Counted from the first letter of the stretch, positions 32,014-62,148 are shown. The stretch: 64,000 nt of DNA from Candidatus Rokuibacteriota bacterium (GCA_003221515.1 QHSI01000101.1:2753-66752); one strand, 5' to 3'. A program made the numbers and translations. Notes: generated by a model not told the origin, from the letters alone.

Positions 32014-34032
32014 TCAGGAACCGTAGAGGTGACACGCGACGTGATGTCCCGGCGCGTGCTCCTGCAGCACTGGCTCCGCCTCCGAGCACACCGGCAGCGC
32101 CTGCGGACACCGGGGATGAAATCGACACCCCGCCGGCGGATTGAACGCGCTCGGCACCTCACCCCTCAGAATGACCTCCTCGCGCACGTCGTCCGGATGC
32201 GACGGCAGCGCGTTGTTCAGGAGCACCTGCGTGTACGGATGGAGCGGGTTCGCGTAGAGCTCGTTCGCCGGCGCCGTCTCGACGAGCTTGCCCAGGTACA
32301 TCACGCCGATCCGCGTGCTCACGTACTTCACGACCGCCAGGTCGTGGGCGATGAAGAGATAGCTGACGCCGAGACGGTCCTGGATCTCTCGCAGCAGGTT
32401 CATCACCTGGGCGCGGATCGACACGTCGAGCGCCGAGACCGCCTCGTCGAGCAGGATGCACTCAGGATCCGTCGTCGGGGCCCGGGCGATCGCGACGCGC
32501 TGGCGTTGGCCTCCGGAGAGCTCGTGAGGGTAGTCGTCGGCGATCCGCGGCCGTAATCCCACCCGCGTGAGCGAGCCGGCGATGCGCTCGTCGATCTCCG
32601 CGCGCGTGAGGCCTGGCTGGTTCTGGGTGAGGGGCTCGCCCACCGTCGTGCGGATCGTCAGGCGTGGGTTCAACGAGCCGTACGGATCCTGGAACACGGC
32701 CTGCACCGCTCGTCGGTACTCGTTCGTCTCGTCACGGTCAAGCGAGTGAATGTCGCGGCCGCGGAACAGGACACCGCCGGCGGTCGGGCGCTCGAGGGAC
32801 AGAACGAGCCGCGCGGCGGTGGTCTTCCCGCATCCGCTCTCGCCGACGAGCCCGAGCGTCTCCCCGTGACGCAGGACGAAGTCGACGCCGTCGACCGCCT
32901 TCACGGTGCCCGCGGCGCGGGCGAAGATCGTCCCCCGCGCCAACGGGAAGTGCTTCGTCAGCGCACGCGCCTCGAGTACGACGTCGCCTCCGCCGTCCAG
33001 GTCGTCGCGAGCCGGATTCGCCATACTCGATAGCGACACCACGCGTCCATTCGGCTTCGAGGTGTCCTCTGCACGCAGGCATGCGACGAGATGCCCCTGC
33101 GCGATCGGCTCCAGCGCCGGCCGGGCCTCGACGCAGCGCGGCTCGGCTATCGGACATCGCGGCGCGAAGCTACAGCCCGGAGGCACCGCGGCCAGATCGG
33201 GCGGCTGGCCATCGATCGCCGTCAGCGGCTCGCGGCCGCGGCGCAGGGTGGGCAGACAGTTCAGCAGCCCGATCGTGTACGGGTGACGCGGCTCATTGAA
33301 GATGTCGCGCGTCTTGCCCATCTCGACGACGCCCCCGGCATACATGACGGCGACCCGGTCGCAGAGCTTGGCCACGATCGCCAGATCGTGCGTGACGAAG
33401 ACCAGCGCCAGGTTGGTCTCGCGCTGGATCTCCTTCAGGAGCCGCAGGTACTGCGCCTGGATCGTCACGTCCAGCGACGTCGTCGGCTCGTCGGCGATCA
33501 GGAGACTCGGCTGGCACGAGATCGCGATCGCGCCGGCGACGCGCTGGCGGATGCCGCCACTCATCTGATGGGGATAGGCGTGCACGCGCCGCTCGGGATC
33601 GCTGATCCTCACCTGCCGTAGGAGTTCGAGCACGCGCTGGTCGAGGGCGCGGCCGCGGAGGCCGCGGTGGAGCCAGAGCGTCTCCGCGATCTGCTCGCCG
33701 ACCGTCATGGCCGGATTCAGCGAGGCCATCGGGTCCTGCAGGATCATCGCGATCCGCGAGCCGCGGAGCTGGCGCATCTCCTCGGGGCTCTTGGCGAGCA
33801 GGCTCTGGCCGTCGAAGACGATGTCGCCCCCGACGATCTTGCCGCCGGGCTCGGGCACCAATCGCAAGATCGAGAGGCACGTCATCGACTTGCCGGAGCC
33901 GGACTCGCCGACGATCCCGAGGGTCTCGCCGCGCTGGACCGAAAACGTCGCGCCGTCGACCGCCTTCACGACCCCGCGGCGCGTATAGATGTAGGTCCGG
34001 AGATCCCGGACCTCGAGCAGATCCTCACCCAC
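32014..34032 (-). CDS. Fused tandem ABC ATP-binding protein (two DppD/DppF-type cassettes in one polypeptide, GsiA-like), 672 aa
   Basis: Two Walker A sites ('[11 protein letters not shown]', 'GESGCGKTT') and two signature/oligopeptide C-terminal domains in a single 672-aa ORF. Confidence 0.85.
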
Positions 34033-39991: not shown

Positions 39992-40018
39992 TCGCCGACT
40001 CTGCGGCGGCGGGCTCTC

Positions 40019-40420
40019 TTGATCTCTCAATCGGTGGATAACCTGGTGGCAACGGTCAGATATCTGGTCGCCGACGTTGAGCGTTCCTTGGCCTTCTACA
40101 CCACGGCGCTCGGATTCAAGCTGGATCAGAGCATGGCTCCGGCTTTCGCGCGTGTCTCCAAGAATGATCTGACTCTTTGGCTCGCCGGTCCACAGAGCTC
40201 CGCGGCTCGGCCGATGCCTGACGGGCGACGTCCCGAGCCCGGCGGATGGAATCGCTTCGTCGTCGAGATGGAGGATCTTCCGTCACGCGTGGCTGAAATG
40301 AAGCGCGCCGGCCTGCGTTTCCGTAATGATGTGGTCGTCGGCCCCGGCGGCAAGCAGGTCTTGCTCGAGGATCCGGATGGTAATCTTGTCGAACTCTTCG
40401 AGGCTGCGCGATCACACTGA
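40019..40420 (+). CDS. VOC-family (glyoxalase/bleomycin-resistance/dioxygenase) single-domain protein, about 125-133 aa
   Basis: 'VATVRYLVADVERSLAFYTTALGFKLDQ...WNRFVVEMEDL...LLEDPDGNLVELFE'. Start is either TTG 40019 or GTG around 40046. Confidence 0.75.
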   Translation: MISQSVDNLVATVRYLVADVERSLAFYTTALGFKLDQSMAPAFARVSKNDLTLWLAGPQSSAARPMPDGRRPEPGGWNRFVVEMEDLPSRVAEMKRAGLRFRNDVVVGPGGKQVLLEDPDGNLVELFEAARSH

Positions 40421-40438
40421 TCCGGCGGCCGGGGATGT

Positions 40439-41172
40439 CTAGACCTGCCGCAGCTTCGGGTCGAGGCGGTCGCGGACCCAGTCGCCGAGGATGTTCAGCG
40501 AGAGCACGGTGACGAGGATCGCGATGCCCGGGAGGATCGAGACCCACCACGCCTGCTCGATCAGCCCGCGCCCGTCGGCCACCATCACACCCCACGACGG
40601 CGTGGGCGGTGGGATGCCCACGCCGAGGAAGCTCAGCGCCGCCTCGAGCACGATCACGTAGCCGACGTGTAGCGTCGCCAGCACCAGGATCGAGGGCGCC
40701 AGGTTGGGGACGATGTGGCGGAACATGATCGTCCAGCTCGAGCACCCAGCGAGATGTCGGCCAGCCGCATCAGGAGCGTCTCGGTCCAGCCGCCGAGGAA
40801 GCCGGCCAGGAGGCCGATGAGGCTGCCCGCCGCGCCGGTCAGCGTGATGCCGACCACCGACACCGCCAGCGAGATGCGGGCGCCGTAGAGCAGCCGGCTC
40901 AGGGTGTCGCGCCCGTGGCGGTCGGTGCCGAGCACGTGGCCGGGCTTGGCGCCTTCGAGGCCGATCGGCGGCGCCAGCCGCTCACCGAGGGAACCCTCGA
41001 CCGGCGAGTGTGGCGCCAGCAGCGGCGCCAGCACGGCGCACAGCACGAGCAAGACGACGATGGCCAGCGGGACGGCCGGCGGCCACCGTCGGTCGTGACG
41101 ACGCGCGACGGCCGCGTCGTCAGCGGCGAGTGGGGCGCCTGGCGTCGCGTGCGTAGCGGAAGGCACGCTCAT
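40439..41172 (-). pseudogene. DppC/OppC-type ABC permease gene disrupted by an internal out-of-frame deletion of about 165 bp
   Basis: The N-terminal 145 codons are in one frame ('...[15 protein letters not shown]', ending near 40737). The C-terminal 95 codons are in another frame ('[31 protein letters not shown]...DPKLRQV', 40439-40726). The intact paralog (17952-18875) has about 55 extra residues between the equivalent points ('SLPTILIAVVLVAV...FVALAVVAGRSSTW'). Confidence 0.7.
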
Positions 41173-42089
41173 CGCGAGTACCTGATCCTGGGATTCAGAT
41201 ACGCGTAGAGCACATCGACCAGCAGGTTCACGCCGATGTACATCGCCGAGAGGAAGAGCACGACGGTCTGGACGATCGGATAGTCACGCGAGTCGACGGC
41301 CTCGATCACCAGCAGGCCGAGGCCCGGCCAGCCGAACACGGTCTCCACGATGATCGAGCCGTTCAGGAGCGCCACGAACAGGAGCGCGGCGAACGTCACC
41401 ACCGGCAGCGCGGCGTTCTTGAACGCGTGCTTCCAGATCACCCGCCGCTCCGACAGCCCCTTGATGCGCGCGAGCTTGACGTACTCGCTGCCGAGGACGT
41501 CGAGCATCGACGAGCGCGTCAACCGCATGAGGCCGGCGACCGCGAACCAGCCGAGCGTGATGCCCGGCAAGAGGACGTGCATCGGCGTGCCGCGGCCGGA
41601 AGTCGGCAGGAGTCGCAGCAGCACGCCGAAGATGAGCACCAGCACGAGCCCGAGCCAGAACGGCGGCACCGCCTGGCCGAGCGCGGCGAAGGCCCGAGCG
41701 CCGTAGTCGAGCGCGCTGCCGCGTCGGACCGCCGAGTAGACGCCGACCGGGAGCGCGACGACGATCACGACGAGCACGGCGAGGCCGCCGAGCTCGAGCG
41801 TGGCCCCGTAGCGCTCGGCGATCAGGTCGAGGGCCGGGCGTCGGAACCGCACGGACCGGCCGAAGTCTCCCTGGAGCGCCTGGGTCGCGAACTTCCAGTA
41901 CTGGACGTGCCACGGGCGGTCGAGGCCGAGGTGCGCGCGCATCAGCTCGATGTCGGCCTTCGACGCCTCGGCGGGCATCATGATCTGGATGGGATCGCCG
42001 GAGAGGCGCACGAGCGCGAAGACCACGACGGACACCACGACCATGGAGACGACGGACTGGATCAGGCGTCCGACGATGTAGCGTTGCAC
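41169..42089 (-). CDS. ABC transporter permease (DppB/OppB-like), 306 aa
   Basis: 'MQRYIVGRLIQSVVSMVVV...' permease-B architecture. Overlaps the downstream permease-C remnant by 4 nt. Confidence 0.85.
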   Translation of the reverse strand: MQRYIVGRLIQSVVSMVVVSVVVFALVRLSGDPIQIMMPAEASKADIELMRAHLGLDRPWHVQYWKFATQALQGDFGRSVRFRRPALDLIAERYGATLELGGLAVLVVIVVALPVGVYSAVRRGSALDYGARAFAALGQAVPPFWLGLVLVLIFGVLLRLLPTSGRGTPMHVLLPGITLGWFAVAGLMRLTRSSMLDVLGSEYVKLARIKGLSERRVIWKHAFKNAALPVVTFAALLFVALLNGSIIVETVFGWPGLGLLVIEAVDSRDYPIVQTVVLFLSAMYIGVNLLVDVLYAYLNPRIRYSR

Positions 42090-42103
42090 GCCGCCCTACC
42101 GCC

Positions 42104-43267
42104 TCAGGCGCGTCCCCAGAGCTGCTTCGTCGCGATCCGCGCGCCGTCGCTCAGCGCCTTCAGCTTCGCCCAGACCACGCTCGGATGGATCTCGGTCGAT
42201 CCGGCGAACGTCGCGAAGCCGCAGTCGGACCCGGCGATGACGTTCTCGCGCCCGACGACCTTGGCGAACTTCACGATCCGCTCGGCCACCAGCTCTGGAT
42301 GCTCGACCAGATTGGTCGACTGGGTGATCGCGCCCGGGACGAGCAGCGCGCCTTCCGGGAGCTTGACGCCCTCCCACACGCGCCACTCGTGCTCGTGGCG
42401 CGGATTGGCGGCCTCGAACGAGTAGGCGCCGGCGCGGACCTTCAGCATGATGTCCACGACGTGCTTCAGCTCCATGTCGTGGACGCGCGGCCCCATGTTG
42501 ATCCCGTAGCAGGTGTGGAACCGGACCCGCTCGCGCGGCAGCCCGCGGAGCGCGTGGTTCAGCGCCTCCACGCGCACCTCGGCCCACCGGCGGCACTCGT
42601 CCACGGTCGAGCGCGGGTCCATGATGTAGTAGGTCATCAGGCGCGGATCGTCGATCTGCACCAGGAACCCGGCGTCGACGATCGCCTTGTACTCCTCCCG
42701 CATGGCGTCGGCGATCGCGAACAGGTATTCCTCGTCCGTCTTGTAGTAGGTGTTCTCCTGGCGACCCTCGACGTTCGAGGGCGAGATGGCGGGGATGAAC
42801 GCCTCCTCGACCCCGACACCGGCGAGCGCGGCCTTGAGGTTCTCGATGTCCGTCTTCACCTGCGCGTGGCCGTGGTAGGCGATCGGCCCGGTGCACGCGA
42901 ACGTCCGGGCTCGGGTGTTGGCGCTCTGGGGCACGGTGGCCGCGTAGAACTCGGGGAACGAGATGTACTCCTTCGATCCCGACCACGGCAGCCCGGCGGC
43001 CTTGGCGCTCGGCTCGAACCCGCTCAGGCGGTCGGTCACGTAGGTCACGAAGCTCGGCTTGCCCATCTCACCGTCGTCGATCACGTCCACGCCGAGCTCG
43101 ACCTGCCGACGCACGATCTCGCCGACCGCGCTCTTCACCCGGCGCGCGTACGCGTCGCGGTCGTAGGGACGCCCGTCGGCCAGGGCGCGCACCATCTCCA
43201 GCAGGTCGGCCGGCCGCGGCAGGCTGCCCGCGTGCGTCGTGAGGATCCGCTCGCGGCTGCGCTTCAT
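42104..43267 (-). CDS. Cobalamin-independent methionine synthase (MetE C-terminal domain)-like / methionine synthase II family protein, about 388 aa
   Basis: 'MKRSRERILTTHAGSLPRPADLLEMVRALADGR...' typical of the stand-alone MetE-like family. The upstream 108 codons of the track ORF lack homology and overlap the binding-protein fragment. Confidence 0.7.
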   Translation of the reverse strand: MKRSRERILTTHAGSLPRPADLLEMVRALADGRPYDRDAYARRVKSAVGEIVRRQVELGVDVIDDGEMGKPSFVTYVTDRLSGFEPSAKAAGLPWSGSKEYISFPEFYAATVPQSANTRARTFACTGPIAYHGHAQVKTDIENLKAALAGVGVEEAFIPAISPSNVEGRQENTYYKTDEEYLFAIADAMREEYKAIVDAGFLVQIDDPRLMTYYIMDPRSTVDECRRWAEVRVEALNHALRGLPRERVRFHTCYGINMGPRVHDMELKHVVDIMLKVRAGAYSFEAANPRHEHEWRVWEGVKLPEGALLVPGAITQSTNLVEHPELVAERIVKFAKVVGRENVIAGSDCGFATFAGSTEIHPSVVWAKLKALSDGARIATKQLWGRA

Positions 43268-43275
43268 GGCCTGGA

Positions 43276-43728
43276 TCAGCCCGCCGGGCTCACGTACTCG
43301 TAGTTGGTCTCGAGCGGCACGTACGCGAGCGATTGCCAGCCGCCCACCTTCTTGCTCAGCGCCCACGTGACGGACTTCACGCCGAGCATCACGCCGTAGT
43401 AGCACTTCACGCCCGAGCGGAGCTTGAACGTCCACGTCTTGAGCTCGTTCGACGGCTTCCATTCCGTGGCCAGCCCCGGGCGGTACTCGAAGGTCTTCGG
43501 GTCGCGCGTGATCAGCGAATCGTAGACGCAGTCCCACAGGGGCTTCTCGCCCTGCACGCCGCGCCAGGCGAACGGCGTCTCGGTGCCCCACTGACCGACC
43601 GCGACGACGAGGCGCTCGTTGGGGCCGGCGGTGGCGCGAGCGGGGCGAACGACCGGCGCGCCCATGGCGGCGACGGCCGCGGTGCCCGCCCGCCGCAAGA
43701 AACTTCGGCGATCGATCGAACGAGCCAT
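43276..43728 (-). pseudogene. Truncated family-5 ABC substrate-binding protein gene: Tat signal plus the first about 120 mature residues only
   Basis: 'MARSIDRRSFLRRAGTAAVAAMGAP' is a twin-arginine signal (ribosome-binding site GGAGGA). 'PGLATEWKPSNELKTWTFKLRSGVK' SBP_bac_5 motif. The ORF then ends (about 150 aa against about 530 expected), 9 nt before the next gene. Confidence 0.65.
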
Positions 43729-43858
43729 CGTGATGTCCTCCGAGATCTGCCTCAGCTCACGTACTCGAGCGAGACCGCCTCCACCATGTCCGGTCCGTCG
43801 AGCGCGCAGGTCATCACGAGGCGCCCGAGACGTGCATGGGCAGCTCACATCGTGCGCT

Positions 43859-44422
43859 TCAGTCGTGGCCAGCAGGACCGGTCGGCTGCCCCGAGAGTGG
43901 CTTCAGGCGAAGCAGAAACTGTTGGAGCGGCGTGTCGTGGGTCAACGGAATTTCGCAGTGAGCAATTGGCCGGGCGGGGTTCCCCTGGACCATGGTCATG
44001 GGAGGGACGGAACGGGTGACAATACTCCCCGCGGCGACCACCGCGCCACGGCCGAGCGTCACGTTCGGCAAAATGATGCAGCCCGGGCCGACAAACACTT
44101 CATCTTCGATCCGGACTGAGATGCGATCCTTCATTTGGTCCGGAGATGGCGGATCCCCTTCGAAGTGGGCAATGATCGTTGTGCGCATCCCAATGGCCAC
44201 GTTGTTTCCCAGCTGTACCCATTCAGGGTAGGCAGTCTCAATGAGCACGTCGGTCCCGATATACACGGGAGTCCCCATTTTTACGCCCCGCCATCGGTGC
44301 AGCCTGACCCGCAGAGTGGCCTGCCCTGGCGCGTACAGGGCCAGCACCTGCAGCAAACGGTTCTTGACGCCCCGTAGCCGGGGCTCGGGGGGAAATCGGG
44401 GCCTCTTGTCTCTGGATACCAC
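43859..44422 (-). CDS. Hexapeptide-repeat (left-handed beta-helix) acyl/acetyltransferase, 187 aa
   Basis: '...IGTDVLIETAYPEWVQLGNNVAIGMRTTIIAHFEG...VFVGPGCIILPNVTLGRGAVVAAGSIVTRSVPPMTMVQGNPARPI' shows LbH repeats of the WcaF/MAT type. Confidence 0.8.
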   Translation of the reverse strand: MVSRDKRPRFPPEPRLRGVKNRLLQVLALYAPGQATLRVRLHRWRGVKMGTPVYIGTDVLIETAYPEWVQLGNNVAIGMRTTIIAHFEGDPPSPDQMKDRISVRIEDEVFVGPGCIILPNVTLGRGAVVAAGSIVTRSVPPMTMVQGNPARPIAHCEIPLTHDTPLQQFLLRLKPLSGQPTGPAGHD

Positions 44423-44499
44423 CCGGCCTGCCTCCGAAGGGGTGAAAACCCACGTGGATTTTACCAGTGCCTCACTGGCACCGGCGTGAATTCTCGGAA

Positions 44500-44588
44500 A
44501 TCACCGGCCGGAGGTTCTGGAACCAGTAGGCTAGCTTGGGCTACACTTTTCGATACACGGATGATAGTCACACACACTGTGGACATTT
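44500..44588. promoter_or_regulatory. AT-enriched divergent intergenic region between the acyltransferase (-) and LLM (+) genes; candidate divergent promoters/operator
   Basis: Locally low GC ('ACTTTTCGATACACGGATGATAGTCACACACACTGTGGACATTTGTGAAC') in an otherwise about 68% GC sequence. Contains the 12-bp palindrome GGTTCTGGAACC (about 44513-44524). Confidence 0.4.
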
Positions 44589-45608
44589 GTGAACGTGAAA
44601 GCGAAACACGCTGACGCGGTTGTCGAAATCTTCTCTACCTGTCCCGCCTCGAGTACTACGGATCGGGGGGTCTACGCGCGGGCCGTCGCCGAGGTGGCCC
44701 AGTGGAGCGAGCGCTATGGCCACAAAGGAATCCTCGTCTACACCGACAACTCGCTGATCGATCCGTGGCTCGTCAGCCAGATCATCGTGCAGGCCACGAC
44801 AGCCCTGTGTCCCCTGGTCGCCGTGCAGCCCGCTTATATGCACCCGTACGCGGTCGCGAAGATGGTTGCCACCTTTGGCTATTTGTACGGACGGCGCCTC
44901 TACCTGAACATGGTCGCCGGAGGGTTCAGGAACGATCTCCTCGCCCTGAACGACACGACACCGCACGACAGGCGCTATGACCGCTTGCGCGAGTACACGC
45001 TCATCATCACGCGTCTTCTCACCGGCGCTCCGGTCAGTCTCGAGGGTGAGTTCTACACGGTGAACAGACTCCGCCTGACCCCGGCGCTTCATCCCGAATT
45101 GATGCCCGGGATTTTCGTCTCGGCGTCGTCGGACGCCGGCGTCGCCACCGCCCGAGCACTTGGCGCCACGGCCGTGCACTATCCGAAACCGGCCCACGAA
45201 TACGACAACGCACCCTTGACTGTCGAAGGCGCTGGCATTCGAGTGGGCGTCATCGCGCGCCCGAGTGAGGCGGAAGCGTGGGCGACTGCCCGGCAACGCT
45301 TTCCCGAGGACCGGACGGGCCAGATCACGCACCAACTGGCCATGAAGACGTCCGATTCCGTCTGGCACAAGCAACTCTCCGAGCTAGCTGGCGAGAGTGA
45401 GAACCACCCATACTGGCTGGTGCCCTTCCAGAACTACAAGACGTTCTGCCCTTACCTGGTCGGCAGCTACACGCGCGTTGCCGATGAACTGGCCCGGTAC
45501 ATTATCGCGGGATACCACACGTTCATCCTGGACATTCCGCCCGAAGAGGGGGAACTACATCACACCAATATCGCGTTCTCCCGCGCACGCGAGCAGATGG
45601 CGTCATGA
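44589..45608 (+). CDS. LLM-class (luciferase-like) flavin-dependent oxidoreductase, 339 aa
   Basis: TIM-barrel LLM features ('...GILVYTDNSLIDPWLVSQIIVQATTALCPLVAVQPAYMHPYAVAKMVATF...'). GTG start. The stop overlaps the next gene (ATGA). Confidence 0.75.
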   Translation: MNVKAKHADAVVEIFSTCPASSTTDRGVYARAVAEVAQWSERYGHKGILVYTDNSLIDPWLVSQIIVQATTALCPLVAVQPAYMHPYAVAKMVATFGYLYGRRLYLNMVAGGFRNDLLALNDTTPHDRRYDRLREYTLIITRLLTGAPVSLEGEFYTVNRLRLTPALHPELMPGIFVSASSDAGVATARALGATAVHYPKPAHEYDNAPLTVEGAGIRVGVIARPSEAEAWATARQRFPEDRTGQITHQLAMKTSDSVWHKQLSELAGESENHPYWLVPFQNYKTFCPYLVGSYTRVADELARYIIAGYHTFILDIPPEEGELHHTNIAFSRAREQMAS

Positions 45609-47200
45609 CTCGGTTGCTGCAGGGATGGATCACTGAGCACGCGGAACGCCGACCGAGCTCCACGGCGCTGGTCATGCACGACGAGCACCTCAGCTATGAA
45701 CAGATCGAAGCGCGGACGAACCAGCTGGCGAGGATGCTCAAGGCCATCGGCTGCCTGCGAGGAGACCGGGTCGCGCTGCTCATGGGCAAGTCGCCGACGG
45801 CGATCGTCGCGATCCTGGGGATCCTCAAGGCTGATTGTATCTACGTACCCCTCGATCCGGCGAGTCCCGTTCCCCGGCTTGCCCACATGGTCGCCAGCGC
45901 AGAGCCTCGATGCATCCTGGCAGCGGGCCCGACGGCCGCCCTGCTGGACGCTCTGCGGGCGGCCCAACAATCCTCTCGCTCGATCGCCATCGGGTGGATG
46001 GAGCGCGAAACGGTCGCCGGGACACAGGTCACCGCAGCGTTCTCGAGGAACGATGTCGACAGCTGCGCCGCGACACCCTTGGCATACCGCAATGGTCCAC
46101 AGGACACGGCGTATATTCTCTTCACCTCCGGTTCCACCGGCGTCCCCAAGGGAGTGCCGATCACGCACTCTAACGTGGCGCACTTCATCGCATGGGCGAC
46201 TCGGTACTTCGGCATCAGCCCCTCGGACCGGATCTCTGGCCATCCGCCCCTGCACTTCGATCTGTCCGTCTTCGACATCTTCGGGACCTTTGCCGCTGGA
46301 GCCCAGCTTCATCTGGTACCCCACGACCTGACGCTTCTGCCCATTCGACTGGCTCACTTCATTACCACCTCGGAGTTGACCCAGTGGTTCTCGGTCCCAT
46401 CCCTTCTCACGTACATCGCGAAATTCGACGCCATTCCGGCAAATGGCTTCCCAGCGTTGAAGCGCCTCCTCTGGTGCGGAGAGGTGCTGCCGACACCCGT
46501 CCTGATGTACTGGATGAAGCGCCTCCCGTCCGTGAGCTTCACGAACCTCTACGGTCCCACGGAGGCGACGATCGCGAGCAGCTACTACACGGTCCCGACC
46601 TGCCCGGACGATCCGACGGCGCCGATTCCGATCGGGACCGCGTGCGATGGTGAAGAACTGCTCGTTCTCGATGAACGCCTGCAGCCGGTCAGGCCCGGGC
46701 AGACGGGCGATCTGTATATCCGCGGGGTGGGACTCAGTCCGGGCTACTGGCGAGACCCAGAAAAAACACGGACCGCTTTTCTCGCCAACCCGAACAGCCG
46801 CGATCCGTCGGATCGCGTCTACAAAACCGGCGACCTCGCCCGCCTCGGAGGCGACGGCGCCGTCTATTTCCTCGGTCGTGCGGACTCGCAGATCAAGACC
46901 CGCGGCTACCGGATCGAGTTGGGTGAGATCGAGACACATCTGCATGCTCTCCCGCAGCTCAAAGAATCGGCCGTGGTCGCGATCAACACCGATGGATTCG
47001 AGGGCGCCACGATCTGCTGCGCGTACGTGCCCGCTCCCGGCGCCGCGGTGACACCGGCGGCGCTCCGCCAGGAGCTGGCGAAGACCCTGCCGTCCTATAT
47101 GTTGCCGGCCGGCTGGCGGATGTTCGACGCACTCCCCAAGAACGAGAACGGAAAGGTCGATCGACGCCAATTGATGGACGACTTCGGTAGAGATCGCTGA
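45605..47200 (+). CDS. Stand-alone adenylation (AMP-binding) enzyme, DltA-like/NRPS A-domain-like, 531 aa
   Basis: Core motifs 'LFTSGSTGVPKGV', 'NLYGPTEATI', 'YKTGDLAR', 'GRADSQIKTRGYRIELGEIE'. No condensation or thioesterase domain. Confidence 0.85.
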   Translation: MTRLLQGWITEHAERRPSSTALVMHDEHLSYEQIEARTNQLARMLKAIGCLRGDRVALLMGKSPTAIVAILGILKADCIYVPLDPASPVPRLAHMVASAEPRCILAAGPTAALLDALRAAQQSSRSIAIGWMERETVAGTQVTAAFSRNDVDSCAATPLAYRNGPQDTAYILFTSGSTGVPKGVPITHSNVAHFIAWATRYFGISPSDRISGHPPLHFDLSVFDIFGTFAAGAQLHLVPHDLTLLPIRLAHFITTSELTQWFSVPSLLTYIAKFDAIPANGFPALKRLLWCGEVLPTPVLMYWMKRLPSVSFTNLYGPTEATIASSYYTVPTCPDDPTAPIPIGTACDGEELLVLDERLQPVRPGQTGDLYIRGVGLSPGYWRDPEKTRTAFLANPNSRDPSDRVYKTGDLARLGGDGAVYFLGRADSQIKTRGYRIELGEIETHLHALPQLKESAVVAINTDGFEGATICCAYVPAPGAAVTPAALRQELAKTLPSYMLPAGWRMFDALPKNENGKVDRRQLMDDFGRDR

Positions 47201-47203
47201 GAG

Positions 47204-47455
47204 ATGGCCAGGAATATGCGGTTGTGCAACCGACTCACCCAGTTCTTTCGCGACAAGCTCTACCTTGAGGTTCCGTCACCCGACACGGACCTGATCGAGG
47301 CGGGCCTGCTCGATTCTCTGAATTTCGCTCAGTTGATGGTCCACATCGAACAGGAATTCGCCATGCACATCTCTCCGGAGGACCTCGAGTTCGATCACTT
47401 TCGCACCATTGCGAAGATCGCAGCCTTTGTCGCAACCAGGTGGCTGGGCTCTTGA
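47204..47455 (+). CDS. Acyl/peptidyl carrier protein (DltC-like), 83 aa
   Basis: Phosphopantetheine attachment motif 'GLLDSLNFAQL'. Immediately follows the adenylation gene. Confidence 0.8.
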   Translation: MARNMRLCNRLTQFFRDKLYLEVPSPDTDLIEAGLLDSLNFAQLMVHIEQEFAMHISPEDLEFDHFRTIAKIAAFVATRWLGS

Positions 47456-48384
47456 ACATCCTTTTAGTCGCGGAAGAGTCGGCCGGCATCCGCCTGCTCC
47501 GCGCATTGCTCCGTACGGAACATCGGATCGTCGCCGTCATGACGAGCACCACCGGGCCCAGCAAGACGTCGAGCATGGCCTCGGTCGCCACCAGGGCGGG
47601 GCTGGACATCTGGCCACCCTCCCGCGTCCGGGATCCGGCGCTTGCGCGAGAGCTGCGGGCCGCAGGCGTGGATCTGATCCTGAACGCTCATTCTCTCTAT
47701 CTCATCCACGAGGAGGTTCTCCGCGCACCGTCGATCGCGGCCTTCAATCTTCATCCCGGGCCGCTGCCCCGATACAGTGGCCTGAACTGCCCGAGCTGGG
47801 CCATCTATCGGGCCGAGCGCACGTACGGCGTCACGGTCCACCGCATGTCGCCACGCATCGACGCCGGGCCGATCGCCTATCAGACGACCTTCGATATCGA
47901 CGAGGCGGCAACTGGGTTCACCTTGACGGCCAAGTGCGTCAGCGTTGGCGTGCCGCTGATGCGGCAACTGGTTGAGGTCGCGGCCCGGGATCCCGCAGCG
48001 ATTCCTGCAATCGAGCAGGACGTCGGGCAGCGGAAGTACTTCGGTCGTGAGGTTCCGCGCAACGGCGCACTCATCTGGTCGGAGTCCGCGAGTCAGATCG
48101 CCAGATTCGTCCGAGCCTTCGATTACTATCCGTTCGCCTCGCCATGGGGGCATCCGCAAGCTCTGTACGAAGGGCAGCACATCGGTGTCGTGAAGGCCGT
48201 CCAAACCCGGGCCAAGACCGGGACGCCTCCGGGGACACTGCGGCGAGGACCGTCAGGGATCATGGAAGTTGCCGCCGCCGACGAATGGCTGGCGTTGCAC
48301 CTGGTCCATGCCGGCGGCAGACACATCAGGCCCGATCAGCTCCTACGTGATGGAACGCGCTTGGAGGATGGGACAAAAACGTGA
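47440..48384 (+). CDS. Formyltransferase (Fmt/ArnA-N-terminal-like: N-terminal Formyl_trans_N plus C-terminal domain), 314 aa
   Basis: GTG start overlapping the carrier-protein stop. 'ILNAHSLYLIHEEVLRAPSIAAFNLHPGPLPRYSG' corresponds to the formyltransferase catalytic HxSLLPxxRG region. Confidence 0.8.
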   Translation: MAGLLNILLVAEESAGIRLLRALLRTEHRIVAVMTSTTGPSKTSSMASVATRAGLDIWPPSRVRDPALARELRAAGVDLILNAHSLYLIHEEVLRAPSIAAFNLHPGPLPRYSGLNCPSWAIYRAERTYGVTVHRMSPRIDAGPIAYQTTFDIDEAATGFTLTAKCVSVGVPLMRQLVEVAARDPAAIPAIEQDVGQRKYFGREVPRNGALIWSESASQIARFVRAFDYYPFASPWGHPQALYEGQHIGVVKAVQTRAKTGTPPGTLRRGPSGIMEVAAADEWLALHLVHAGGRHIRPDQLLRDGTRLEDGTKT

Positions 48385-48467
48385 ACTGTCGATACGGCCG
48401 AGTCCTACGGTACCGAAGAGATCGTCGGCAAAGCAAGGCGTGCGGATCTGTGCGCTTGACGAGACCA

Positions 48468-48535
48468 TGAACGTCCACGTCTTGAGCTCGTTCGAGGGCT
48501 TCCACTCGGTCGCCAGGCCCGGGCGGTCTTCTCGG
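48468..48535 (-). pseudogene. About 22-codon relic of a family-5 substrate-binding-protein gene, paralogous to 43425-43487
   Basis: Minus-strand translation 'EDRPGLATEWKPSNELKTWTF' is identical at protein level to the truncated binding protein at 43.4 kb. The DNA differs at 6 positions, all synonymous third positions. No further homology on either side. Confidence 0.55.
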
Positions 48536-48683
48536 ACTGGCTCGAGCGCCATGCGAAGAGGCGACGAGCGGGGACCCATTACGCCGCGGCCGAAGCTCGC
48601 TCGAGGAACGTGCGTCGGTTGATCGCCATCGCGTAGCCTCCCCCGTTGAGGCGTCGGGCCTCGGCGGCTATTCGATCTGTCGC

Positions 48684-49538
48684 TCAGCTGCTGTGGGCGG
48701 GGACGCGCCCCCCGGTCGGGCGCGAGCGGGGCGCGGCGGGGCCCGACCTGAACAGCATCGCGCCCGCGACGATCAAGTATACGAGGTAGCCGCCGACCTC
48801 GAGGAGCGACGGTCGCGCCCGGTAACCGATCAGCCCGCCGAGGAATCCGCCGATGAAGCCGTGGTCGTCCAGCGCGAACGAGGTGTCCCACACCGTCGGC
48901 GACTGCGGGAGCACTCCCATCGCCTCCAGCCTGCCGAGCCCCGTGCTCAACATGCCGGCGGCCAGAAGAAGCAGCAAGATCGAGGTGATCGCGAAGAACC
49001 GCTGCAAGCTGATGCGCCGGCCGCCCCGGAAGATCGTCCAGCCGAGCGCGGCCGCCGTCGCGAGGCCGAGGAACGCGCCCAGCGCGCTCGCCCAGCCCGA
49101 CGGCGAGGTCGCCTGGGTGAGGAGTCCCCAGAGGAAGAGTACGGTCTCGGCGCCCTCGCGAAACACGCCGGTGAACGCGATCAGGCCGATGATCCAGAGT
49201 CGGTGGGTGACCTGCGCCGCGTCGATCCGGCTCTGGACTTCGCCCCTCACGGCGCGCGCGTGCTGGCGCATCCAGTACCCGTGCCAAGTGAGGACGATGA
49301 CCGCGACGAAGATCACGCAGAGCGCGATCACATCAGGCCCCAGATCGAGCAGCGGCCCCGAGAACGCTGTCACCAGCACGCCGAGCCAGACGCTGGCGAG
49401 CACCCCGAGCGCGCCGCCCCAGGTGGCGTAGCTGTAGTGCCGCTCGGCGCCGATCTTCTGGAGGTACGTATAGACGATGCCCAGGATGAGCGCGGCCTCG
49501 AACCCCTCGCGCAACGTGACGACGAAGGCACCGCCCAT
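48684..49538 (-). CDS. FTR1-family high-affinity iron permease (EfeU/FtrC-like), 284 aa
   Basis: Two 'REGxE' motifs ('REGFEAALILG', 'REGAETVLFLW') in transmembrane helices. Confidence 0.85.
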   Translation of the reverse strand: MGGAFVVTLREGFEAALILGIVYTYLQKIGAERHYSYATWGGALGVLASVWLGVLVTAFSGPLLDLGPDVIALCVIFVAVIVLTWHGYWMRQHARAVRGEVQSRIDAAQVTHRLWIIGLIAFTGVFREGAETVLFLWGLLTQATSPSGWASALGAFLGLATAAALGWTIFRGGRRISLQRFFAITSILLLLLAAGMLSTGLGRLEAMGVLPQSPTVWDTSFALDDHGFIGGFLGGLIGYRARPSLLEVGGYLVYLIVAGAMLFRSGPAAPRSRPTGGRVPAHSS

Positions 49539-59330: not shown

Positions 59331-60134
59331 GTGCTGGCCAGCGTGGCTGCCGAGCCAAGTAAGTGGATCTATGGAGGGTTCGCGCTGGAGTATCGTGGGT
59401 GGGTGACCGGTGTTCCCCGCCCCCCCGACGGGTGTGCCCAAGACGTCGAGCTCGTGCGGCTGGCGCTGACCGGCGAGGGGGTCGACGTCGCGCTGCTCGA
59501 CGTGGAGCACCTGGCCGACATCGAGTCGACAGCAGCGCGCTACCTGACGCCGTTGGAGCGCGAGGAATACGCCGGGCTCAGGCTCGAGACCCGCCGACGG
59601 GAGTGGCTTGCAGCGCGTGTCTGCCTCAAGACGATGCTGCTGGAGCGGCGCTGCGTCAGCGACCCGACCCGGTGCGCGATCGTGAAGGACGCGGCCGGAC
59701 GACCGCGGCTCGTCTTTGCCGAGCCGCCCGCAGAATCCGTGCACGACTGCTCGCTCTCGCACAAGGGGCGGTTCGCGTGCGCCGGCGCCTCACGCCTGGC
59801 CGCCACCCGCCTCGGGGTCGACATCGAGGAGATTTCCCCTCGCCTGCTGCGGATCGAGCGCGCCTTCGCGCGTGACCGCGACCGCCCGTTTCGAGCCCGG
59901 CCGACGCAGGAGCGGCTGGCGCTGCTCTGGGCGCTGAAGGAAGCGTGCGCCAAGGCGGTCGGCAGCGGGCTCGGGTTCGCGATGGGCGCCGTGAGCTGCG
60001 AGGAGGCGGAGGAGGGTCGGCATCACGTGAGGACCGAGGACGGCCGGCAGTTCCGCGGACGCCACGTCGTCCACGATGGCTACGTCGTCGCACTGTGCCT
60101 GACCGAGGACGAACCCTGCGCCGGGGTCGAGTAA
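59331..60134 (+). CDS. 4'-phosphopantetheinyl transferase, Sfp/EntD type, 267 aa
   Basis: 'SLSHKG' and 'LWALKEACAKAVGSG' (W/FxxKEAxxK) PPTase motifs. Confidence 0.8.
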   Translation: MLASVAAEPSKWIYGGFALEYRGWVTGVPRPPDGCAQDVELVRLALTGEGVDVALLDVEHLADIESTAARYLTPLEREEYAGLRLETRRREWLAARVCLKTMLLERRCVSDPTRCAIVKDAAGRPRLVFAEPPAESVHDCSLSHKGRFACAGASRLAATRLGVDIEEISPRLLRIERAFARDRDRPFRARPTQERLALLWALKEACAKAVGSGLGFAMGAVSCEEAEEGRHHVRTEDGRQFRGRHVVHDGYVVALCLTEDEPCAGVE

Positions 60135-61849: not shown

Positions 61850-61896
61850 GTCGCGTGGCCTCGGGCTGCCGGCTCGATCGAGCTGACAGGAGACCC

Positions 61897-62148
61897 TCAG
61901 GGCTGGAGCTTCCGGCCGACGAAGTCGGCGATGCACTGGATGCTCTCGAAGTTCCGCTTGAGGATCTCTTCGTCGCGGATCTGCACCCCGAACCGGTCTT
62001 CCAGGAAGGTTGCGAGCTCGAAGATCCCCATCGAGTCGATGATGCCGGAGGCGAAGAGGGAATCGTCGTCGGCGACCTTCGGCTCGCCGTGGCGCCCCGC
62101 CGACTTCGCCTCGATGAACTGCCGCACTCCCGCCACCACGTCGCTCAT
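61897..62148 (-). CDS. Acyl carrier protein, 83 aa
   Basis: 'DDDSLFASGIIDSMGIFELATFLEDRFGV' is the ACP Ser-containing motif (IDSMG). Confidence 0.8.
   Translation of the reverse strand: MSDVVAGVRQFIEAKSAGRHGEPKVADDDSLFASGIIDSMGIFELATFLEDRFGVQIRDEEILKRNFESIQCIADFVGRKLQP

What the first reader, a model, noticed from the sequence alone, without database searches (positions are those of the whole stretch)
43859..48384. Condensation-domain-free carrier-protein cluster: hexapeptide acyltransferase / LLM oxidoreductase / stand-alone adenylation enzyme / carrier protein / formyltransferase
A DltA-like adenylation enzyme (A10-type motifs intact), an 83-aa carrier protein (GLLDSL) and an Fmt/ArnA-like formyltransferase are translationally coupled (overlapping stops and starts). 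They are preceded by an LLM-class flavin oxidoreductase and a divergent left-handed-beta-helix acyltransferase. There is no C, TE or KS domain. The combination resembles aminoacyl-carrier-protein systems used for cell-envelope modification (Dlt, AlmEFG). Here it has an added N-formylation capacity and a luciferase-like oxidoreductase. I do not recognise this arrangement from any characterised pathway. It lies between transporter gene remnants, so it is probably accessory.
Basis: inference. Interest (0 to 1): 0.7.

Follow-up and report, generated by a model that had tools for sequence, protein, structure and literature searches.

The report
Acquired aminoacyl-carrier-protein tailoring gene island
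A soil Rokubacteria genome has acquired a five-gene block that loads a small amino acid onto a carrier protein and probably formylates it, oxidises it and passes it to a sugar polymer; the core cassette is common but unstudied in soil bacteria, and this copy is stranded and partly decayed.

Summary
All five genes are present at the stated coordinates, with strong family matches and overlapping or abutting stops and starts.

The arrangement is not a one-off. An LLM / adenylation enzyme / carrier protein / Fmt-like formyltransferase cassette recurs in at least 54 of 80 species-level genomes, across about ten phyla. It almost always lies inside polysaccharide biosynthesis loci. The hexapeptide acyltransferase recurs directly after the carrier-protein gene in several of them.

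The adenylation pocket code is DLFFLCLIAK. It is invariant across orthologues and across a paralogue lineage only 31-35% identical. It is closest to AlmE (glycine), then DltA and PltF, so the enzyme activates an amino acid, not a fatty acid.

I found no paper that characterises this cassette. The best model is a carrier-protein route that builds a formylated, oxygenated glycyl or alanyl group for a glycan. The closest mechanistic precedent is butirosin BtrI/BtrO/BtrH.

In this window the block is a low-GC island of about 4.6 kb. A sibling genome has intact transporter genes at the same site. The island's sixth gene, an aldo-keto reductase, is reduced to shreds, and no glycan genes lie nearby. 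This copy may therefore be an orphan.

The parts
43859..44422 (-). Left-handed beta-helix (hexapeptide) acyltransferase, transcribed divergently from the operon. Proposed to pass the carrier-bound group to its acceptor.
   Evidence: Pfam and NCBIfam matches. Solved relatives include the sugar N-acetyltransferases QdtC, WlbB and PerB, and O-acetyltransferases. Homologues 57-62% identical lie directly after the carrier-protein gene in L009, L054, L089/L090 and L091.
44589..45608 (+). Luciferase-like (LLM) flavin monooxygenase, most similar to SsuD.
   Evidence: PF00296, E 3.9e-33. Best solved relatives are FMNH2-dependent alkanesulfonate monooxygenases. Orthologues are 54-68% identical in more than 50 loci. 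A flavin reductase or nitroreductase gene is adjacent in several of those loci.
45605..47200 (+). Stand-alone amino-acid adenylation enzyme. Pocket code D219 L220 F223 F262 L289 C291 L315 I323 A324 K517, i.e. DLFFLCLIAK.
   Evidence: TIGR01733 at 394 bits, above the cut-off of 317. Pocket alignments to PltF and AlmE. The code is conserved in orthologues and in the A2 paralogues.
47204..47455 (+). 83-aa carrier protein; phosphopantetheine attachment site Ser38 in GLLDSL.
   Evidence: PF00550, E 4e-12. It scores below the cut-offs for DltC and for ordinary ACP.
47440..48384 (+). Two-domain Fmt/ArnA-type formyltransferase. An alternative TTG start at 47452 gives 310 aa.
   Evidence: Family matches. 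Catalytic N103/H105/D141 are invariant. The AlphaFold2 model has pLDDT 94.5 and TM 0.79-0.84 to the ArnA formyltransferase domain and to Met-tRNA formyltransferase.
48379..48467 (+). Shredded remnant of an aldo-keto reductase gene that is translationally coupled to Fmt in a 100% identical contig.
   Evidence: L087 matches window 46050-48388 at 100% and then continues into an intact AKR N-terminus. Only a 49-nt piece (48388-48436) and shorter scraps remain in the window.
43821..48467 (.). Extent of the inserted low-GC island relative to the empty-site sibling genome.
   Evidence: Flanks are about 97% identical to L093. The island replaces L093 11198-12063, inside the first SBP gene. GC profile. 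The related contigs L092 and L087 diverge from the window at 43836 and 48388.
43276..43848 (-). Remnant of the second SBP_bac_5 substrate-binding-protein gene; it lacks 1182 nt internally.
48468..48640 (-). Remnant of the first SBP_bac_5 gene: a TAT signal plus one 60-nt piece.
59331..60134 (+). Sfp/HetI-type 4'-phosphopantetheinyl transferase in the core genome, outside the island. A candidate activator of the carrier protein.
   Evidence: PF01648, 59 bits. NCBIfam match. Also present in the sibling genome that lacks the island.

Best explanation
The block is a horizontally acquired and partly truncated copy of a widespread, uncharacterised aminoacyl-carrier-protein tailoring cassette. In other bacteria this cassette belongs to polysaccharide biosynthesis loci.

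Proposed mechanism:
1. The stand-alone adenylation enzyme activates a small neutral amino acid, glycine or alanine being the most likely, and loads it on the 83-aa carrier protein. The carrier is first primed by a PPTase such as the one at 59.3 kb.
2. The Fmt/ArnA-type enzyme N-formylates the alpha-amino group with 10-formyl-tetrahydrofolate. This happens either on the carrier, as in the LgrA F domain, or just after transfer.
3. The LLM is a two-component FMNH2-dependent monooxygenase. It oxygenates the tethered group, as BtrO does in butirosin biosynthesis.
4. The hexapeptide acyltransferase moves the finished group from the carrier to an amine or hydroxyl of a sugar acceptor. In most other genomes a GNAT-like protein of about 373 aa appears to take this role.

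Status of the steps:
- Shown: the gene content, the conservation, the conserved amino-acid-type pocket, the usual genomic context, and the insertion and decay history.
- Inferred: the order of steps, the identity of the amino acid, the LLM reaction and the acceptor.

In this genome the cassette sits inside a destroyed ABC-transporter operon. It has no glycan genes nearby and has lost its coupled reductase gene, so it may be only partly functional.
For: Cassette conservation:
- Of 80 genome loci retrieved through the Fmt family, 44 carry A (53-67% identical), LLM and CP within 5 kb.
- Ten more carry partial sets, often cut by contig ends.
- Seven carry a second arrangement built around a paralogous A2.
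- The hosts include Acidobacteriota, Nitrospira, Actinomycetota, Gemmatimonadota, Latescibacterota, Calditrichales, Verrucomicrobiota, Chloroflexia and Proteobacteria, including Bradyrhizobium.

Context in other genomes:
- Neighbours are Bac_transf, GT2, GT4, DegT, epimerases/dehydratases, RmlC, polysaccharide deacetylase, carbamoyltransferase with SxtJ, sulfotransferase and AsnB-like genes.

Substrate pocket:
- The code DLFFLCLIAK keeps D235 and K517.
- It is identical or nearly identical in all listed orthologues.
- It is also kept in the A2 paralogues, which are only 31-35% identical overall.
- It shares 7 of 10 residues with AlmE (PDB 4OXI) and resembles DltA and PltF.

Formyltransferase:
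- The catalytic triad is invariant and the model confidently adopts the Fmt/ArnA fold.
- Fmt-CP pairs occur even without A and LLM nearby, in L004 and L083.
- In Gemmatimonadales loci, Fmt follows a FemAB-like aminoacyl transferase and sits near DegT and a PglF-like dehydratase. This points to formylation of an aminoacyl group attached to an amino sugar.
- N-formyl-L-alanyl groups are known on O antigens (PMC10059132).

LLM:
- It is SsuD-like.
- A flavin reductase or nitroreductase gene is adjacent in L022, L025, L026, L028, L033, L034, L059, L060, L063, L083 and L091.
- BtrO, a member of the same superfamily, hydroxylates an ACP-bound N-protected aminoacyl group (PMC2922099 and PMC11354265).

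LbH:
- It lies directly after the CP gene in L009, L054, L089/L090 and L091.

Island history.
Against: - No biochemical or genetic study of any member was found. Every catalytic step is inferred.
- The window contains no homologue of the glycan genes seen in the other loci, so the acceptor here is unknown.
- LbH enzymes of this subclass normally use acetyl-CoA. This one could be an ordinary acetyltransferase.
- By sequence and fold the Fmt protein is as close to ArnA, which formylates a nucleotide sugar, as to Met-tRNA formyltransferase. The LgrA F domain is not among its top matches.
- Fmt genes without the cassette are interleaved with cassette-linked ones. Fmt therefore does not strictly need A and LLM next to it.
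- The LLM reaction has no direct support.
- Comparison with a 98.8% identical copy gives 13 synonymous against 21 non-synonymous codon changes. Together with the lost AKR gene, this is compatible with relaxed selection.
Confidence: 0.5

Rival explanations
1. The genes are a relic. They were brought in as part of a larger element, are no longer part of a working pathway in this genome, and are drifting towards loss.
For: - The Fmt-coupled aldo-keto reductase gene is reduced to scraps.
- Around the island, both SBP genes and dppC carry multiple internal deletions.
- No partner glycan genes occur in the window.
- The codon comparison with L092 gives 13 synonymous and 21 non-synonymous differences.
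- Sibling genomes do without the island.
Against: - All five ORFs are full length and align end to end with their orthologues.
- The catalytic and pocket residues are intact.
- An identical copy occurs in an independent soil metagenome.
- At about 1% divergence, a ratio of non-synonymous to synonymous changes near 0.5 is not evidence of neutrality.
- This reading concerns the status of this copy. It is compatible with the best explanation for what the cassette does.
Confidence: 0.3
2. The formyltransferase is an ordinary sugar N-formyltransferase that acts on a nucleotide-linked amino sugar, as ArnA, WbkC or QdtF do. The A-CP-LLM unit independently supplies a different acyl group. Formylation never happens on the carrier-bound amino acid. 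The formyl may be a transient protecting group that a polysaccharide-deacetylase-type enzyme later removes, as ArnD does.
For: - The best sequence and fold matches include the ArnA formyltransferase domain and sugar N-formyltransferases.
- Fmt genes without the cassette sit next to DegT and dehydratase genes.
- Polysaccharide deacetylase genes are present in 17 of the loci.
- L089/L090 have LLM-A2-CP-LbH without Fmt.
Against: - Fmt is wedged between A and CP, or overlaps the CP stop, in dozens of loci from many phyla.
- Fmt-CP pairs persist where A and LLM are absent.
- Fmt follows a FemAB-like aminoacyl transferase in other loci.
Confidence: 0.2
3. This is a type II (stand-alone) non-ribosomal peptide initiation unit. 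Like the F-A-PCP start of linear gramicidin synthetase, it makes an N-formyl-aminoacyl-S-carrier starter. The starter feeds an NRPS or PKS encoded elsewhere, giving a diffusible secondary metabolite.
For: - The A enzyme belongs to the NRPS adenylation family, and LgrA is its top solved match overall.
- Many acidobacterial loci carry a second A domain (code DS[AV]C[IM]AEVWK) with a P450 gene upstream of the cassette. The ORFs holding these A domains are long, but they were not checked for further NRPS domains.
- L088 has a 2089-aa protein with an A domain near LbH-AKR.
Against: - There is no condensation, thioesterase or ketosynthase domain in the island, and none was annotated among the sibling's flanking genes.
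- The dominant context is glycan assembly genes.
- The LgrA F domain is not among the close matches of this Fmt protein.
Confidence: 0.1
4. This is a Dlt/AlmEFG-type envelope lipid or teichoic acid aminoacylation system that lowers surface charge.
For: - The pocket shares 7 of 10 residues with AlmE, and DltA is among the best pocket-region matches.
- The DltA models align over the full length of the protein.
Against: - Scores fall below the DltA and DltC cut-offs: 291 against 560 bits, and 27 against 52 bits.
- No DltB (MBOAT), DltD or AlmG-type acyltransferase occurs in the island or among the annotated flanks.
- N-formylation would abolish the positive charge on which those systems depend.
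- Orthologous cassettes lie in polysaccharide loci.
Confidence: 0.07

Closest known systems
Butirosin AHBA side-chain pathway (BtrI ACP, BtrJ ligase, BtrK, BtrO/BtrV monooxygenase, BtrH transferase, BtrG) of Niallia (Bacillus) circulans
   Same: An amino acid is tethered to a small free-standing carrier protein and its amine is masked. A two-component monooxygenase of the LLM superfamily oxygenates it while it is on the carrier. The product is then transferred to an amine of an amino sugar (PMC2922099 and PMC11354265; the remaining pathway details are from my own knowledge of Li et al. 2005 and Llewellyn et al. 2007).
   Different: Loading here is by an NRPS-type adenylation enzyme, not an ATP-grasp ligase. 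The masking group would be formyl, not gamma-glutamyl. There is no decarboxylase. The transferase is an LbH or GNAT-like protein, not BtrH. I could not compare the BtrO sequence with this LLM.
Vibrio cholerae AlmEFG (glycine modification of lipid A)
   Same: A stand-alone A enzyme works with a small carrier and no C domain. The pocket code read from the 4OXI alignment is DLHLFCLIA(K), against DLFFLCLIAK here.
   Different: There is no AlmG-type acyltransferase. LLM, Fmt and LbH are additional. Orthologous cassettes sit in polysaccharide loci, not lipid A loci. The glycine specificity of AlmE is recalled from Henderson et al. 2014 and was not re-read.
DltABCD D-alanylation of teichoic acids
   Same: An A enzyme of DltA-like length and architecture is paired with a carrier of about 80 aa. 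Cys is kept at pocket position 301.
   Different: The scores fall below the curated DltA and DltC cut-offs. There is no DltB or DltD. The proposed product is formylated and therefore uncharged.
Linear gramicidin synthetase LgrA initiation module (F-A-PCP)
   Same: A formyltransferase-fold unit, an A unit and a carrier together make an N-formyl-aminoacyl thioester. LgrA is the top solved match of the A enzyme.
   Different: Here the three units are separate proteins and there is no downstream C domain. This Fmt protein is closer to ArnA and Fmt than to the LgrA F domain.
Vibrio cholerae O1 RfbK/L/M/N/O (WbeK-O) tetronate branch of O-antigen synthesis
   Same: In a polysaccharide locus, a dedicated carrier protein and an AMP-forming ligase prepare an unusual N-acyl group for an amino sugar (PMC12208996 and PMC3441752). 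That RfbO is a hexapeptide acyltransferase is from my memory of Morona et al. 1995.
   Different: RfbL groups with acyl-ACP synthetases and activates a hydroxy acid, not an amino acid. I could not check whether RfbN or RfbM correspond to the LLM or Fmt families. That pathway is itself largely putative.
ArnA formyltransferase domain with ArnD deformylase (lipid A aminoarabinose pathway)
   Same: This is the best sequence and fold match for the Fmt protein. Polysaccharide-deacetylase-family genes, the family of ArnD, recur near the cassette.
   Different: There is no fused dehydrogenase domain, no ArnB/C/T genes, and the Fmt gene is tightly linked to a carrier protein.

Membership tests
NRPS-type amino acid adenylation enzymes (TIGR01733) | Score above the curated cut-off, core motifs A1-A10, Asp235 and Lys517 for an alpha-amino acid substrate | tested here: met
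   394 bits against a cut-off of 317. D219 and K517 are in the pocket. The motifs can be read in the translation.
Modular NRPS assembly line | A condensation domain, and a thioesterase or reductase for release | tested here: not met
   The five island proteins carry only the Hexapep, Bac_luciferase, AMP-binding, PP-binding and Formyl_trans domains. None was annotated in the sibling's flanks.
Dlt system | DltA equivalog | tested here: not met
   TIGR01734 scores 290.6 bits against a cut-off of 559.85. PRK04813 scores 306.7 against 476.
Dlt system | DltC equivalog | tested here: not met
   TIGR01688 scores 27.4 bits against a cut-off of 52.35.
Dlt system | DltB (MBOAT) and DltD encoded alongside | tested here: not met
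   Neither is among the island ORFs or the annotated flanks. The whole window was not scanned with the DltB or DltD models.
AlmEFG | AlmE-like glycine pocket | tested here: inconclusive
   7 of 10 code residues are identical to the 4OXI sequence. Positions 239, 278 and 299 differ. No specificity assay has been done.
AlmEFG | AlmG lipid A acyltransferase partner | tested here: not met
   No such gene is in the island. The only transferase is an LbH protein.
Fmt/ArnA-type formyltransferases | N- and C-terminal formyltransferase domains with the catalytic Asn-His-Asp triad | tested here: met
   PF00551 plus PF02911. N103/H105/D141 align to the ArnA residues and are invariant in 24 homologues. TM is 0.79-0.84 to ArnA and Fmt.
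Fmt/ArnA-type formyltransferases | Membership of a named equivalog (Fmt, ArnA, PRK06988) | tested here: not met
   84.7 against 201.5 bits, 116 against 777 bits, and 104.6 against 316 bits respectively.
Two-component FMNH2-dependent LLM monooxygenases (SsuD-like) | Bac_luciferase fold with a partner flavin reductase | tested here: inconclusive
   The fold family is met. A reductase gene is adjacent in many orthologous loci. None was identified in the island itself. The flavin against F420 preference was not tested.
Alkanesulfonate monooxygenase SsuD | Equivalog score | tested here: not met
   106 bits against a cut-off of 518.
Butirosin-type ACP-tethered side-chain pathway | LLM oxygenation of the carrier-bound aminoacyl group, followed by transfer to an amino sugar | not testable with these tools
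   Only gene content and synteny are available. BtrJ, BtrK, BtrH and BtrG counterparts were not seen.
Genomic island / accessory DNA | Absent from the same site in a close relative, with deviant composition | tested here: met
   L093 has flanks about 97% identical and two intact SBP genes at the site. GC is 57-66% against about 70%.
Genomic island / accessory DNA | Mobility genes or a tRNA insertion site | tested here: not met
   The window has no tRNA genes. The only long direct repeat is the pair of paralogous SBP 5' ends. No integrase or transposase is among the ORFs examined.

The most novel reading that the evidence does not exclude
The conserved LLM-A-CP-Fmt cassette is a widespread and so far undescribed route that decorates bacterial polysaccharides with an oxygenated N-formyl-glycyl or N-formyl-alanyl group.

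In the boldest version the LLM N-hydroxylates carrier-bound glycine and Fmt formylates the hydroxylamine. The product would be a tethered N-formyl-N-hydroxyglycine, a hadacidin-like hydroxamate. It would turn an exopolysaccharide into a metal-binding polymer.

An alternative bold version treats formyl as a protecting group that permits BtrO-style alpha-hydroxylation on the carrier.
Probability: 0.12. Interest if true: 0.75.

Novelty: new variant of a known kind. Interest (0 to 1): 0.5.

Why it matters
Carrier-protein-dependent decoration of cell-surface polymers is known from only a few systems: Dlt, AlmEFG, the butirosin side chain and the V. cholerae tetronate branch. This work shows a different four-gene core, with interchangeable LbH or GNAT-like transferases. 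It is conserved from Acidobacteriota to Actinomycetota and Bradyrhizobium and has an essentially invariant substrate pocket.

That points to one specific, still unknown chemical group on the polysaccharides of many abundant soil bacteria. Identifying it would add a glycan modification, a use for a trans-acting formyltransferase with a carrier protein, and a new LLM reaction.

The particular copy in this window matters less. It is an accessory island that destroyed a transporter operon and is itself eroding.

Tried and rejected
- Generic fatty-acid CoA ligase: rejected. TIGR01733 is passed and D235 and K517 are present. By contrast, the separate AMP-binding gene at 59945-61849 is a fatty acyl-AMP ligase.
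- Target-site duplication: rejected. The 65-nt direct repeat flanking the block is just the paralogous 5' ends of two tandem SBP genes.
- Riboswitch or other RNA element that might reveal the substrate: none in 43000-49000.
- tRNA insertion site: none in the window.
- Sigma-70 promoters and terminators: nothing above chance.
- Literature: five searches found no paper on the cassette.
- V. cholerae Rfb papers confirm a carrier-plus-ligase branch, but they did not let me check RfbN or RfbM.
- Fold search of the Fmt model could not separate a carrier-directed from a sugar-directed enzyme.
- The closest Fmt homologues (59-62% identical) turned out to be solo genes in Rokubacteria-like metabolic contexts, which gives no functional clue.
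MAFFT placed position 278 one residue off. I re-derived the code against tool-printed PltF and AlmE alignments.
- Not used: viral and metagenome locus scans, PADLOC, PHROGs and the representative-library search.

Full report
**1. The observation**

Their family assignments are firm.
- A hexapeptide/LbH acyltransferase lies at 43859-44422 on the minus strand.
- On the plus strand follow a luciferase-like monooxygenase (44589-45608), a stand-alone adenylation enzyme (45605-47200), an 83-aa carrier protein (47204-47455) and a two-domain Fmt/ArnA-type formyltransferase (47440 or 47452 to 48384).
- The adenylation enzyme scores 394 bits on TIGR01733, above the curated cut-off of 317.
- The carrier protein has the motif GLLDSL with Ser38.

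The LLM and A genes overlap by ATGA. A and CP are 3 nt apart. The CP stop overlaps either possible Fmt start. None of the five proteins contains a condensation, thioesterase or ketosynthase domain. The formyltransferase keeps the catalytic Asn-His-Asp residues N103, H105 and D141, and these are invariant in 24 homologues. An AlphaFold2 model (pLDDT 94.5) superposes on the ArnA formyltransferase domain and on Met-tRNA formyltransferases with TM 0.79-0.84.

**2. The host and the history of the block**

The flanking proteins are identical to proteins of a Candidatus Rokubacteria MAG (PYN01992 to PYN02006, on a 131-kb contig).

A sibling MAG, GCA_003220525.1 (locus L093), has flanks about 97% identical but no island. 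Its gene order there is EfeU, SBP (536 aa), SBP (544 aa), MetE-like, dppB, dppC, HpaB. Base-level mapping shows the following.
- The block (window about 43821-48467) replaces 866 nt inside the first SBP gene.
- Only three short pieces of that gene remain.
- The second SBP gene has lost 1182 nt.
- dppC has lost 170 nt.

The 65-nt direct repeat on either side of the block is only the paralogous 5' ends of the two SBP genes. The block has 57-66% GC against about 70% in the flanks. It is therefore an acquired island that inactivated a peptide/opine-type ABC importer operon, and that operon has since decayed.

Two related metagenome contigs diverge from the window exactly at the island's edges.
- L092 is 98.8% identical over window 43836-47587 and has a different left flank.
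- L087 is 100% identical over window 46050-48388. It continues into an intact aldo-keto reductase gene whose GTG start overlaps the Fmt stop.
- In the window only a 49-nt piece and a few scraps of that reductase gene survive.

The window copy is therefore truncated. Against L092 the five genes differ by 13 synonymous and 21 non-synonymous codon changes. That indicates weak constraint at best, although the counts are small.

**3. The cassette elsewhere**

The Fmt protein belongs to a large family: 867 proteins scored E <= 1e-10 among the 8000 candidates examined. A scan of one genome per species with a profile of that family returned 80 loci. I then ran tblastn with the five window proteins against these loci.
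- 44 loci have A (53-67% identical), LLM (54-68%) and CP within 5 kb of Fmt.
- 10 loci have partial sets, several of them cut by contig ends.
- 7 loci have a second arrangement built on a paralogous adenylation enzyme, A2, which is 31-35% identical and has its own carrier protein.
- 15 loci show none of the other genes near Fmt.

The usual order is LLM-A-Fmt-CP. The window's order, LLM-A-CP-Fmt, recurs in Actinomycetota and in a few others. The hosts include Acidobacteriota, Nitrospira, Actinomycetota, Gemmatimonadota, Latescibacterota, Calditrichales, Verrucomicrobiota, Chloroflexia, Betaproteobacteria and Bradyrhizobium.

I clustered all ORFs of these loci and annotated the recurrent neighbours. 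The cassette sits in polysaccharide loci. The recurrent neighbours are:
- priming sugar transferases (Bac_transf), GT2 and GT4;
- DegT aminotransferases, PglF/CapD-like dehydratases, RmlC and epimerases;
- AsnB-like amidotransferases and polysaccharide deacetylases;
- carbamoyltransferases with SxtJ-like proteins, sulfotransferases and methyltransferases.

In 20 loci a protein of about 373 aa with weak GNAT similarity (Acetyltransf_9) lies close to the cassette, in several cases directly after it. In actinomycete loci it sits between CP and Fmt. A flavin reductase or nitroreductase gene is adjacent in at least eleven loci. This fits a two-component FMNH2-dependent LLM. The nearest solved relatives of the LLM are SsuD enzymes.

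**4. The hexapeptide acyltransferase belongs to the system**

Its family is also large. Homologues 57-62% identical lie directly downstream of the carrier gene in several arrangements:
- L009 and L054: Fmt-LLM-A2-CP2-LbH;
- L089/L090: LLM-A2-CP-LbH-carbamoyltransferase;
- L091: A2-CP-LbH-Fmt-LLM-nitroreductase-FemAB-like, with an AKR further on.

In L088 the LbH gene is followed by a homologue of the lost AKR, 65% identical to it. The window therefore combines the type-1 core with the LbH and AKR partners typical of type-2 loci.

**5. What the adenylation enzyme activates**

When only the pocket region is searched against solved structures, the best matches are PltF (L-Pro), AlmE (PDB 4OXI) and DltA. 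I read the ten specificity positions from those printed alignments and from a local alignment.
- Window: DLFFLCLIAK (D219, L220, F223, F262, L289, C291, L315, I323, A324, K517).
- AlmE: DLHLFCLIA(K).
- PltF: DLLYLALVC(K).

In one search the nine unambiguous positions are identical in 36 of the 52 orthologues listed. The other 16 differ only by conservative changes at positions 239 (F to Y or W) or 299 (L to I, M or V). MAFFT read position 278 one residue off there.

The code is also kept in the A2 paralogues, despite only 31-35% overall identity. It is identical in L008, L009, L021, L029 and L054 and in L089 and L091. L019 has one change.

The conserved Asp235 and Lys517, together with a tight hydrophobic pocket carrying the DltA/AlmE cysteine, point to a small alpha-amino acid. 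Glycine or alanine is most likely and proline is less likely. A generic fatty-acid ligase is excluded.

**6. The mechanism I consider most likely**

Step 1, loading of the amino acid onto the carrier protein, follows from the family memberships and the pocket.

Step 2, N-formylation, rests on several points.
- The catalytic triad is intact.
- Fmt and CP are very tightly linked. The genes overlap, and Fmt-CP pairs occur even where A and LLM are absent.
- In Gemmatimonadales, Fmt lies directly after a FemAB-like aminoacyl transferase in an amino-sugar locus.
- The LgrA F-A-PCP module is a precedent.
- N-formyl-L-alanyl groups are known on an O antigen (PMC10059132).

Step 3, oxygenation by the LLM, is an analogy with BtrO. 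BtrO is a member of the same superfamily and hydroxylates an N-protected aminoacyl group on the carrier BtrI in butirosin biosynthesis (PMC2922099 and PMC11354265).

Step 4, transfer by LbH or by the GNAT-like protein, rests on synteny. From my own knowledge, LpxA and LpxD are LbH enzymes that use acyl-ACP donors, and RfbO is the proposed transferase in the V. cholerae tetronate branch.

Only the gene content, the conservation, the context and the pocket are shown. The rest is inference. I could not decide whether formyl ends up in the product or serves as a transient protecting group, to be removed later by the recurrent deacetylase-family enzymes as in ArnA/ArnD.

**7. Status in this genome**

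A PPTase (PF01648) lies at 59331-60134, next to a fatty acyl-AMP ligase and another small ACP. The PPTase and the ligase are also present in the sibling without the island, so they are core genome, but the PPTase could prime the island's carrier protein.

None of the glycan genes seen in the other loci has a homologue anywhere in the window. Together with the lost AKR gene and the weak constraint, this leaves open that the island is an orphan.

**8. Comparison with known systems, and novelty**

It is not a Dlt system. The scores fall below the DltA and DltC cut-offs, and there is no DltB or DltD. It is not AlmEFG, because there is no AlmG. It is not a modular NRPS, because there is no C or TE domain. 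It works most like the butirosin side-chain pathway and the LgrA initiation module recast as separate proteins, placed in the setting of the V. cholerae RfbK-O type of O-antigen acyl branch.

My literature searches found no study of this gene combination. I therefore rate it a new variant of a known kind. Interest is moderate for the cassette as a family and low for this particular decaying copy.

Noticed in passing
window 59331-62148: A second carrier-protein system lies about 11 kb from the island. It has an Sfp/HetI-type PPTase (59331-60134, +), a fatty acyl-AMP ligase (within 59945-61849, +; PRK09192 at 270 bits) and an 83-aa ACP on the opposite strand (61897-62148, -; AmcB- and OlsHI-ACP-like). 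The PPTase and the ligase are also present in the sibling MAG that lacks the island. They are next to 2OG-oxygenase and HAD genes there.
   Followed up: partly
window 40439-43848 and 48468-48640: The ABC importer operon around the island is riddled with internal deletions relative to the sibling L093. dppC lacks 170 nt, SBP2 lacks 1182 nt, and SBP1 survives as three short pieces. The island's own AKR gene is shredded in the same manner, which suggests a strong deletional bias after inactivation.
   Followed up: yes
window 39992-40438: The segment carrying the glyoxalase-family gene (40019-40420) has no counterpart in the sibling L093. L093 instead has an unrelated stretch of about 530 nt (L093 17187-17720) at that position. 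This is a second small replacement next to the island region.
   Followed up: no
window 18888-20809 and 32026-34020: Four paralogous genes of about 320 aa occur as two tandem pairs. They share 40-51% identity with ORFs in L038, L042 and L066. Their family was not identified.
   Followed up: no
L017, L024, L031, L034, L036, L052, L053, L055, L059, L060, L063, L064, L067, L072: In these Acidobacteriota and Terriglobales loci a second A domain lies upstream of the cassette, with pocket code DS[AV]C[IM]AEVWK. Most of these loci also carry a sulfotransferase gene. Many carry a P450 gene and a 390-aa protein with no Pfam match. The ORFs holding the A domain are long, but some clearly run through neighbouring genes. 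I did not check them for further NRPS domains.
   Followed up: no
L061, L066, L076, L077, L081: In these Gemmatimonadales loci the Fmt homologue lacks A, LLM and CP nearby and directly follows a FemAB/Acetyltransf_6-like protein. A PglF-like dehydratase accompanies it in L061, L066, L077 and L081. DegT, Bac_transf and a deacetylase also accompany it in L077 and L081. This may be a tRNA-dependent counterpart of the carrier-protein route.
   Followed up: partly
L006, L007, L065 (MAG CAVUPU01): One Acidobacteriota MAG carries three near-identical copies of the cassette with AsnB-like and GT2 neighbours. Each lies at or within about 1 kb of the end of a contig of about 1 Mb, so the repeated cassette region probably breaks the assembly.
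   Followed up: no
L089, L090, L091: In these type-2 loci the cassette is accompanied by a conserved pair: a Pyr_redox_2 flavoprotein (with a Lys/Orn N-oxygenase-like match in L091) and an ATP-grasp protein (ATPgrasp_Ter). This hints at further amino-acid chemistry in the full pathway.
   Followed up: no
L086 and the contig of P0007: The closest homologues of the window's Fmt protein (59-62% identical) are solo genes in metabolic neighbourhoods with hydantoinase B, HpaB, glyoxalase and MFS fragments. These neighbourhoods resemble the window's own surroundings. Solo Fmt copies may therefore be common in this lineage.
   Followed up: partly
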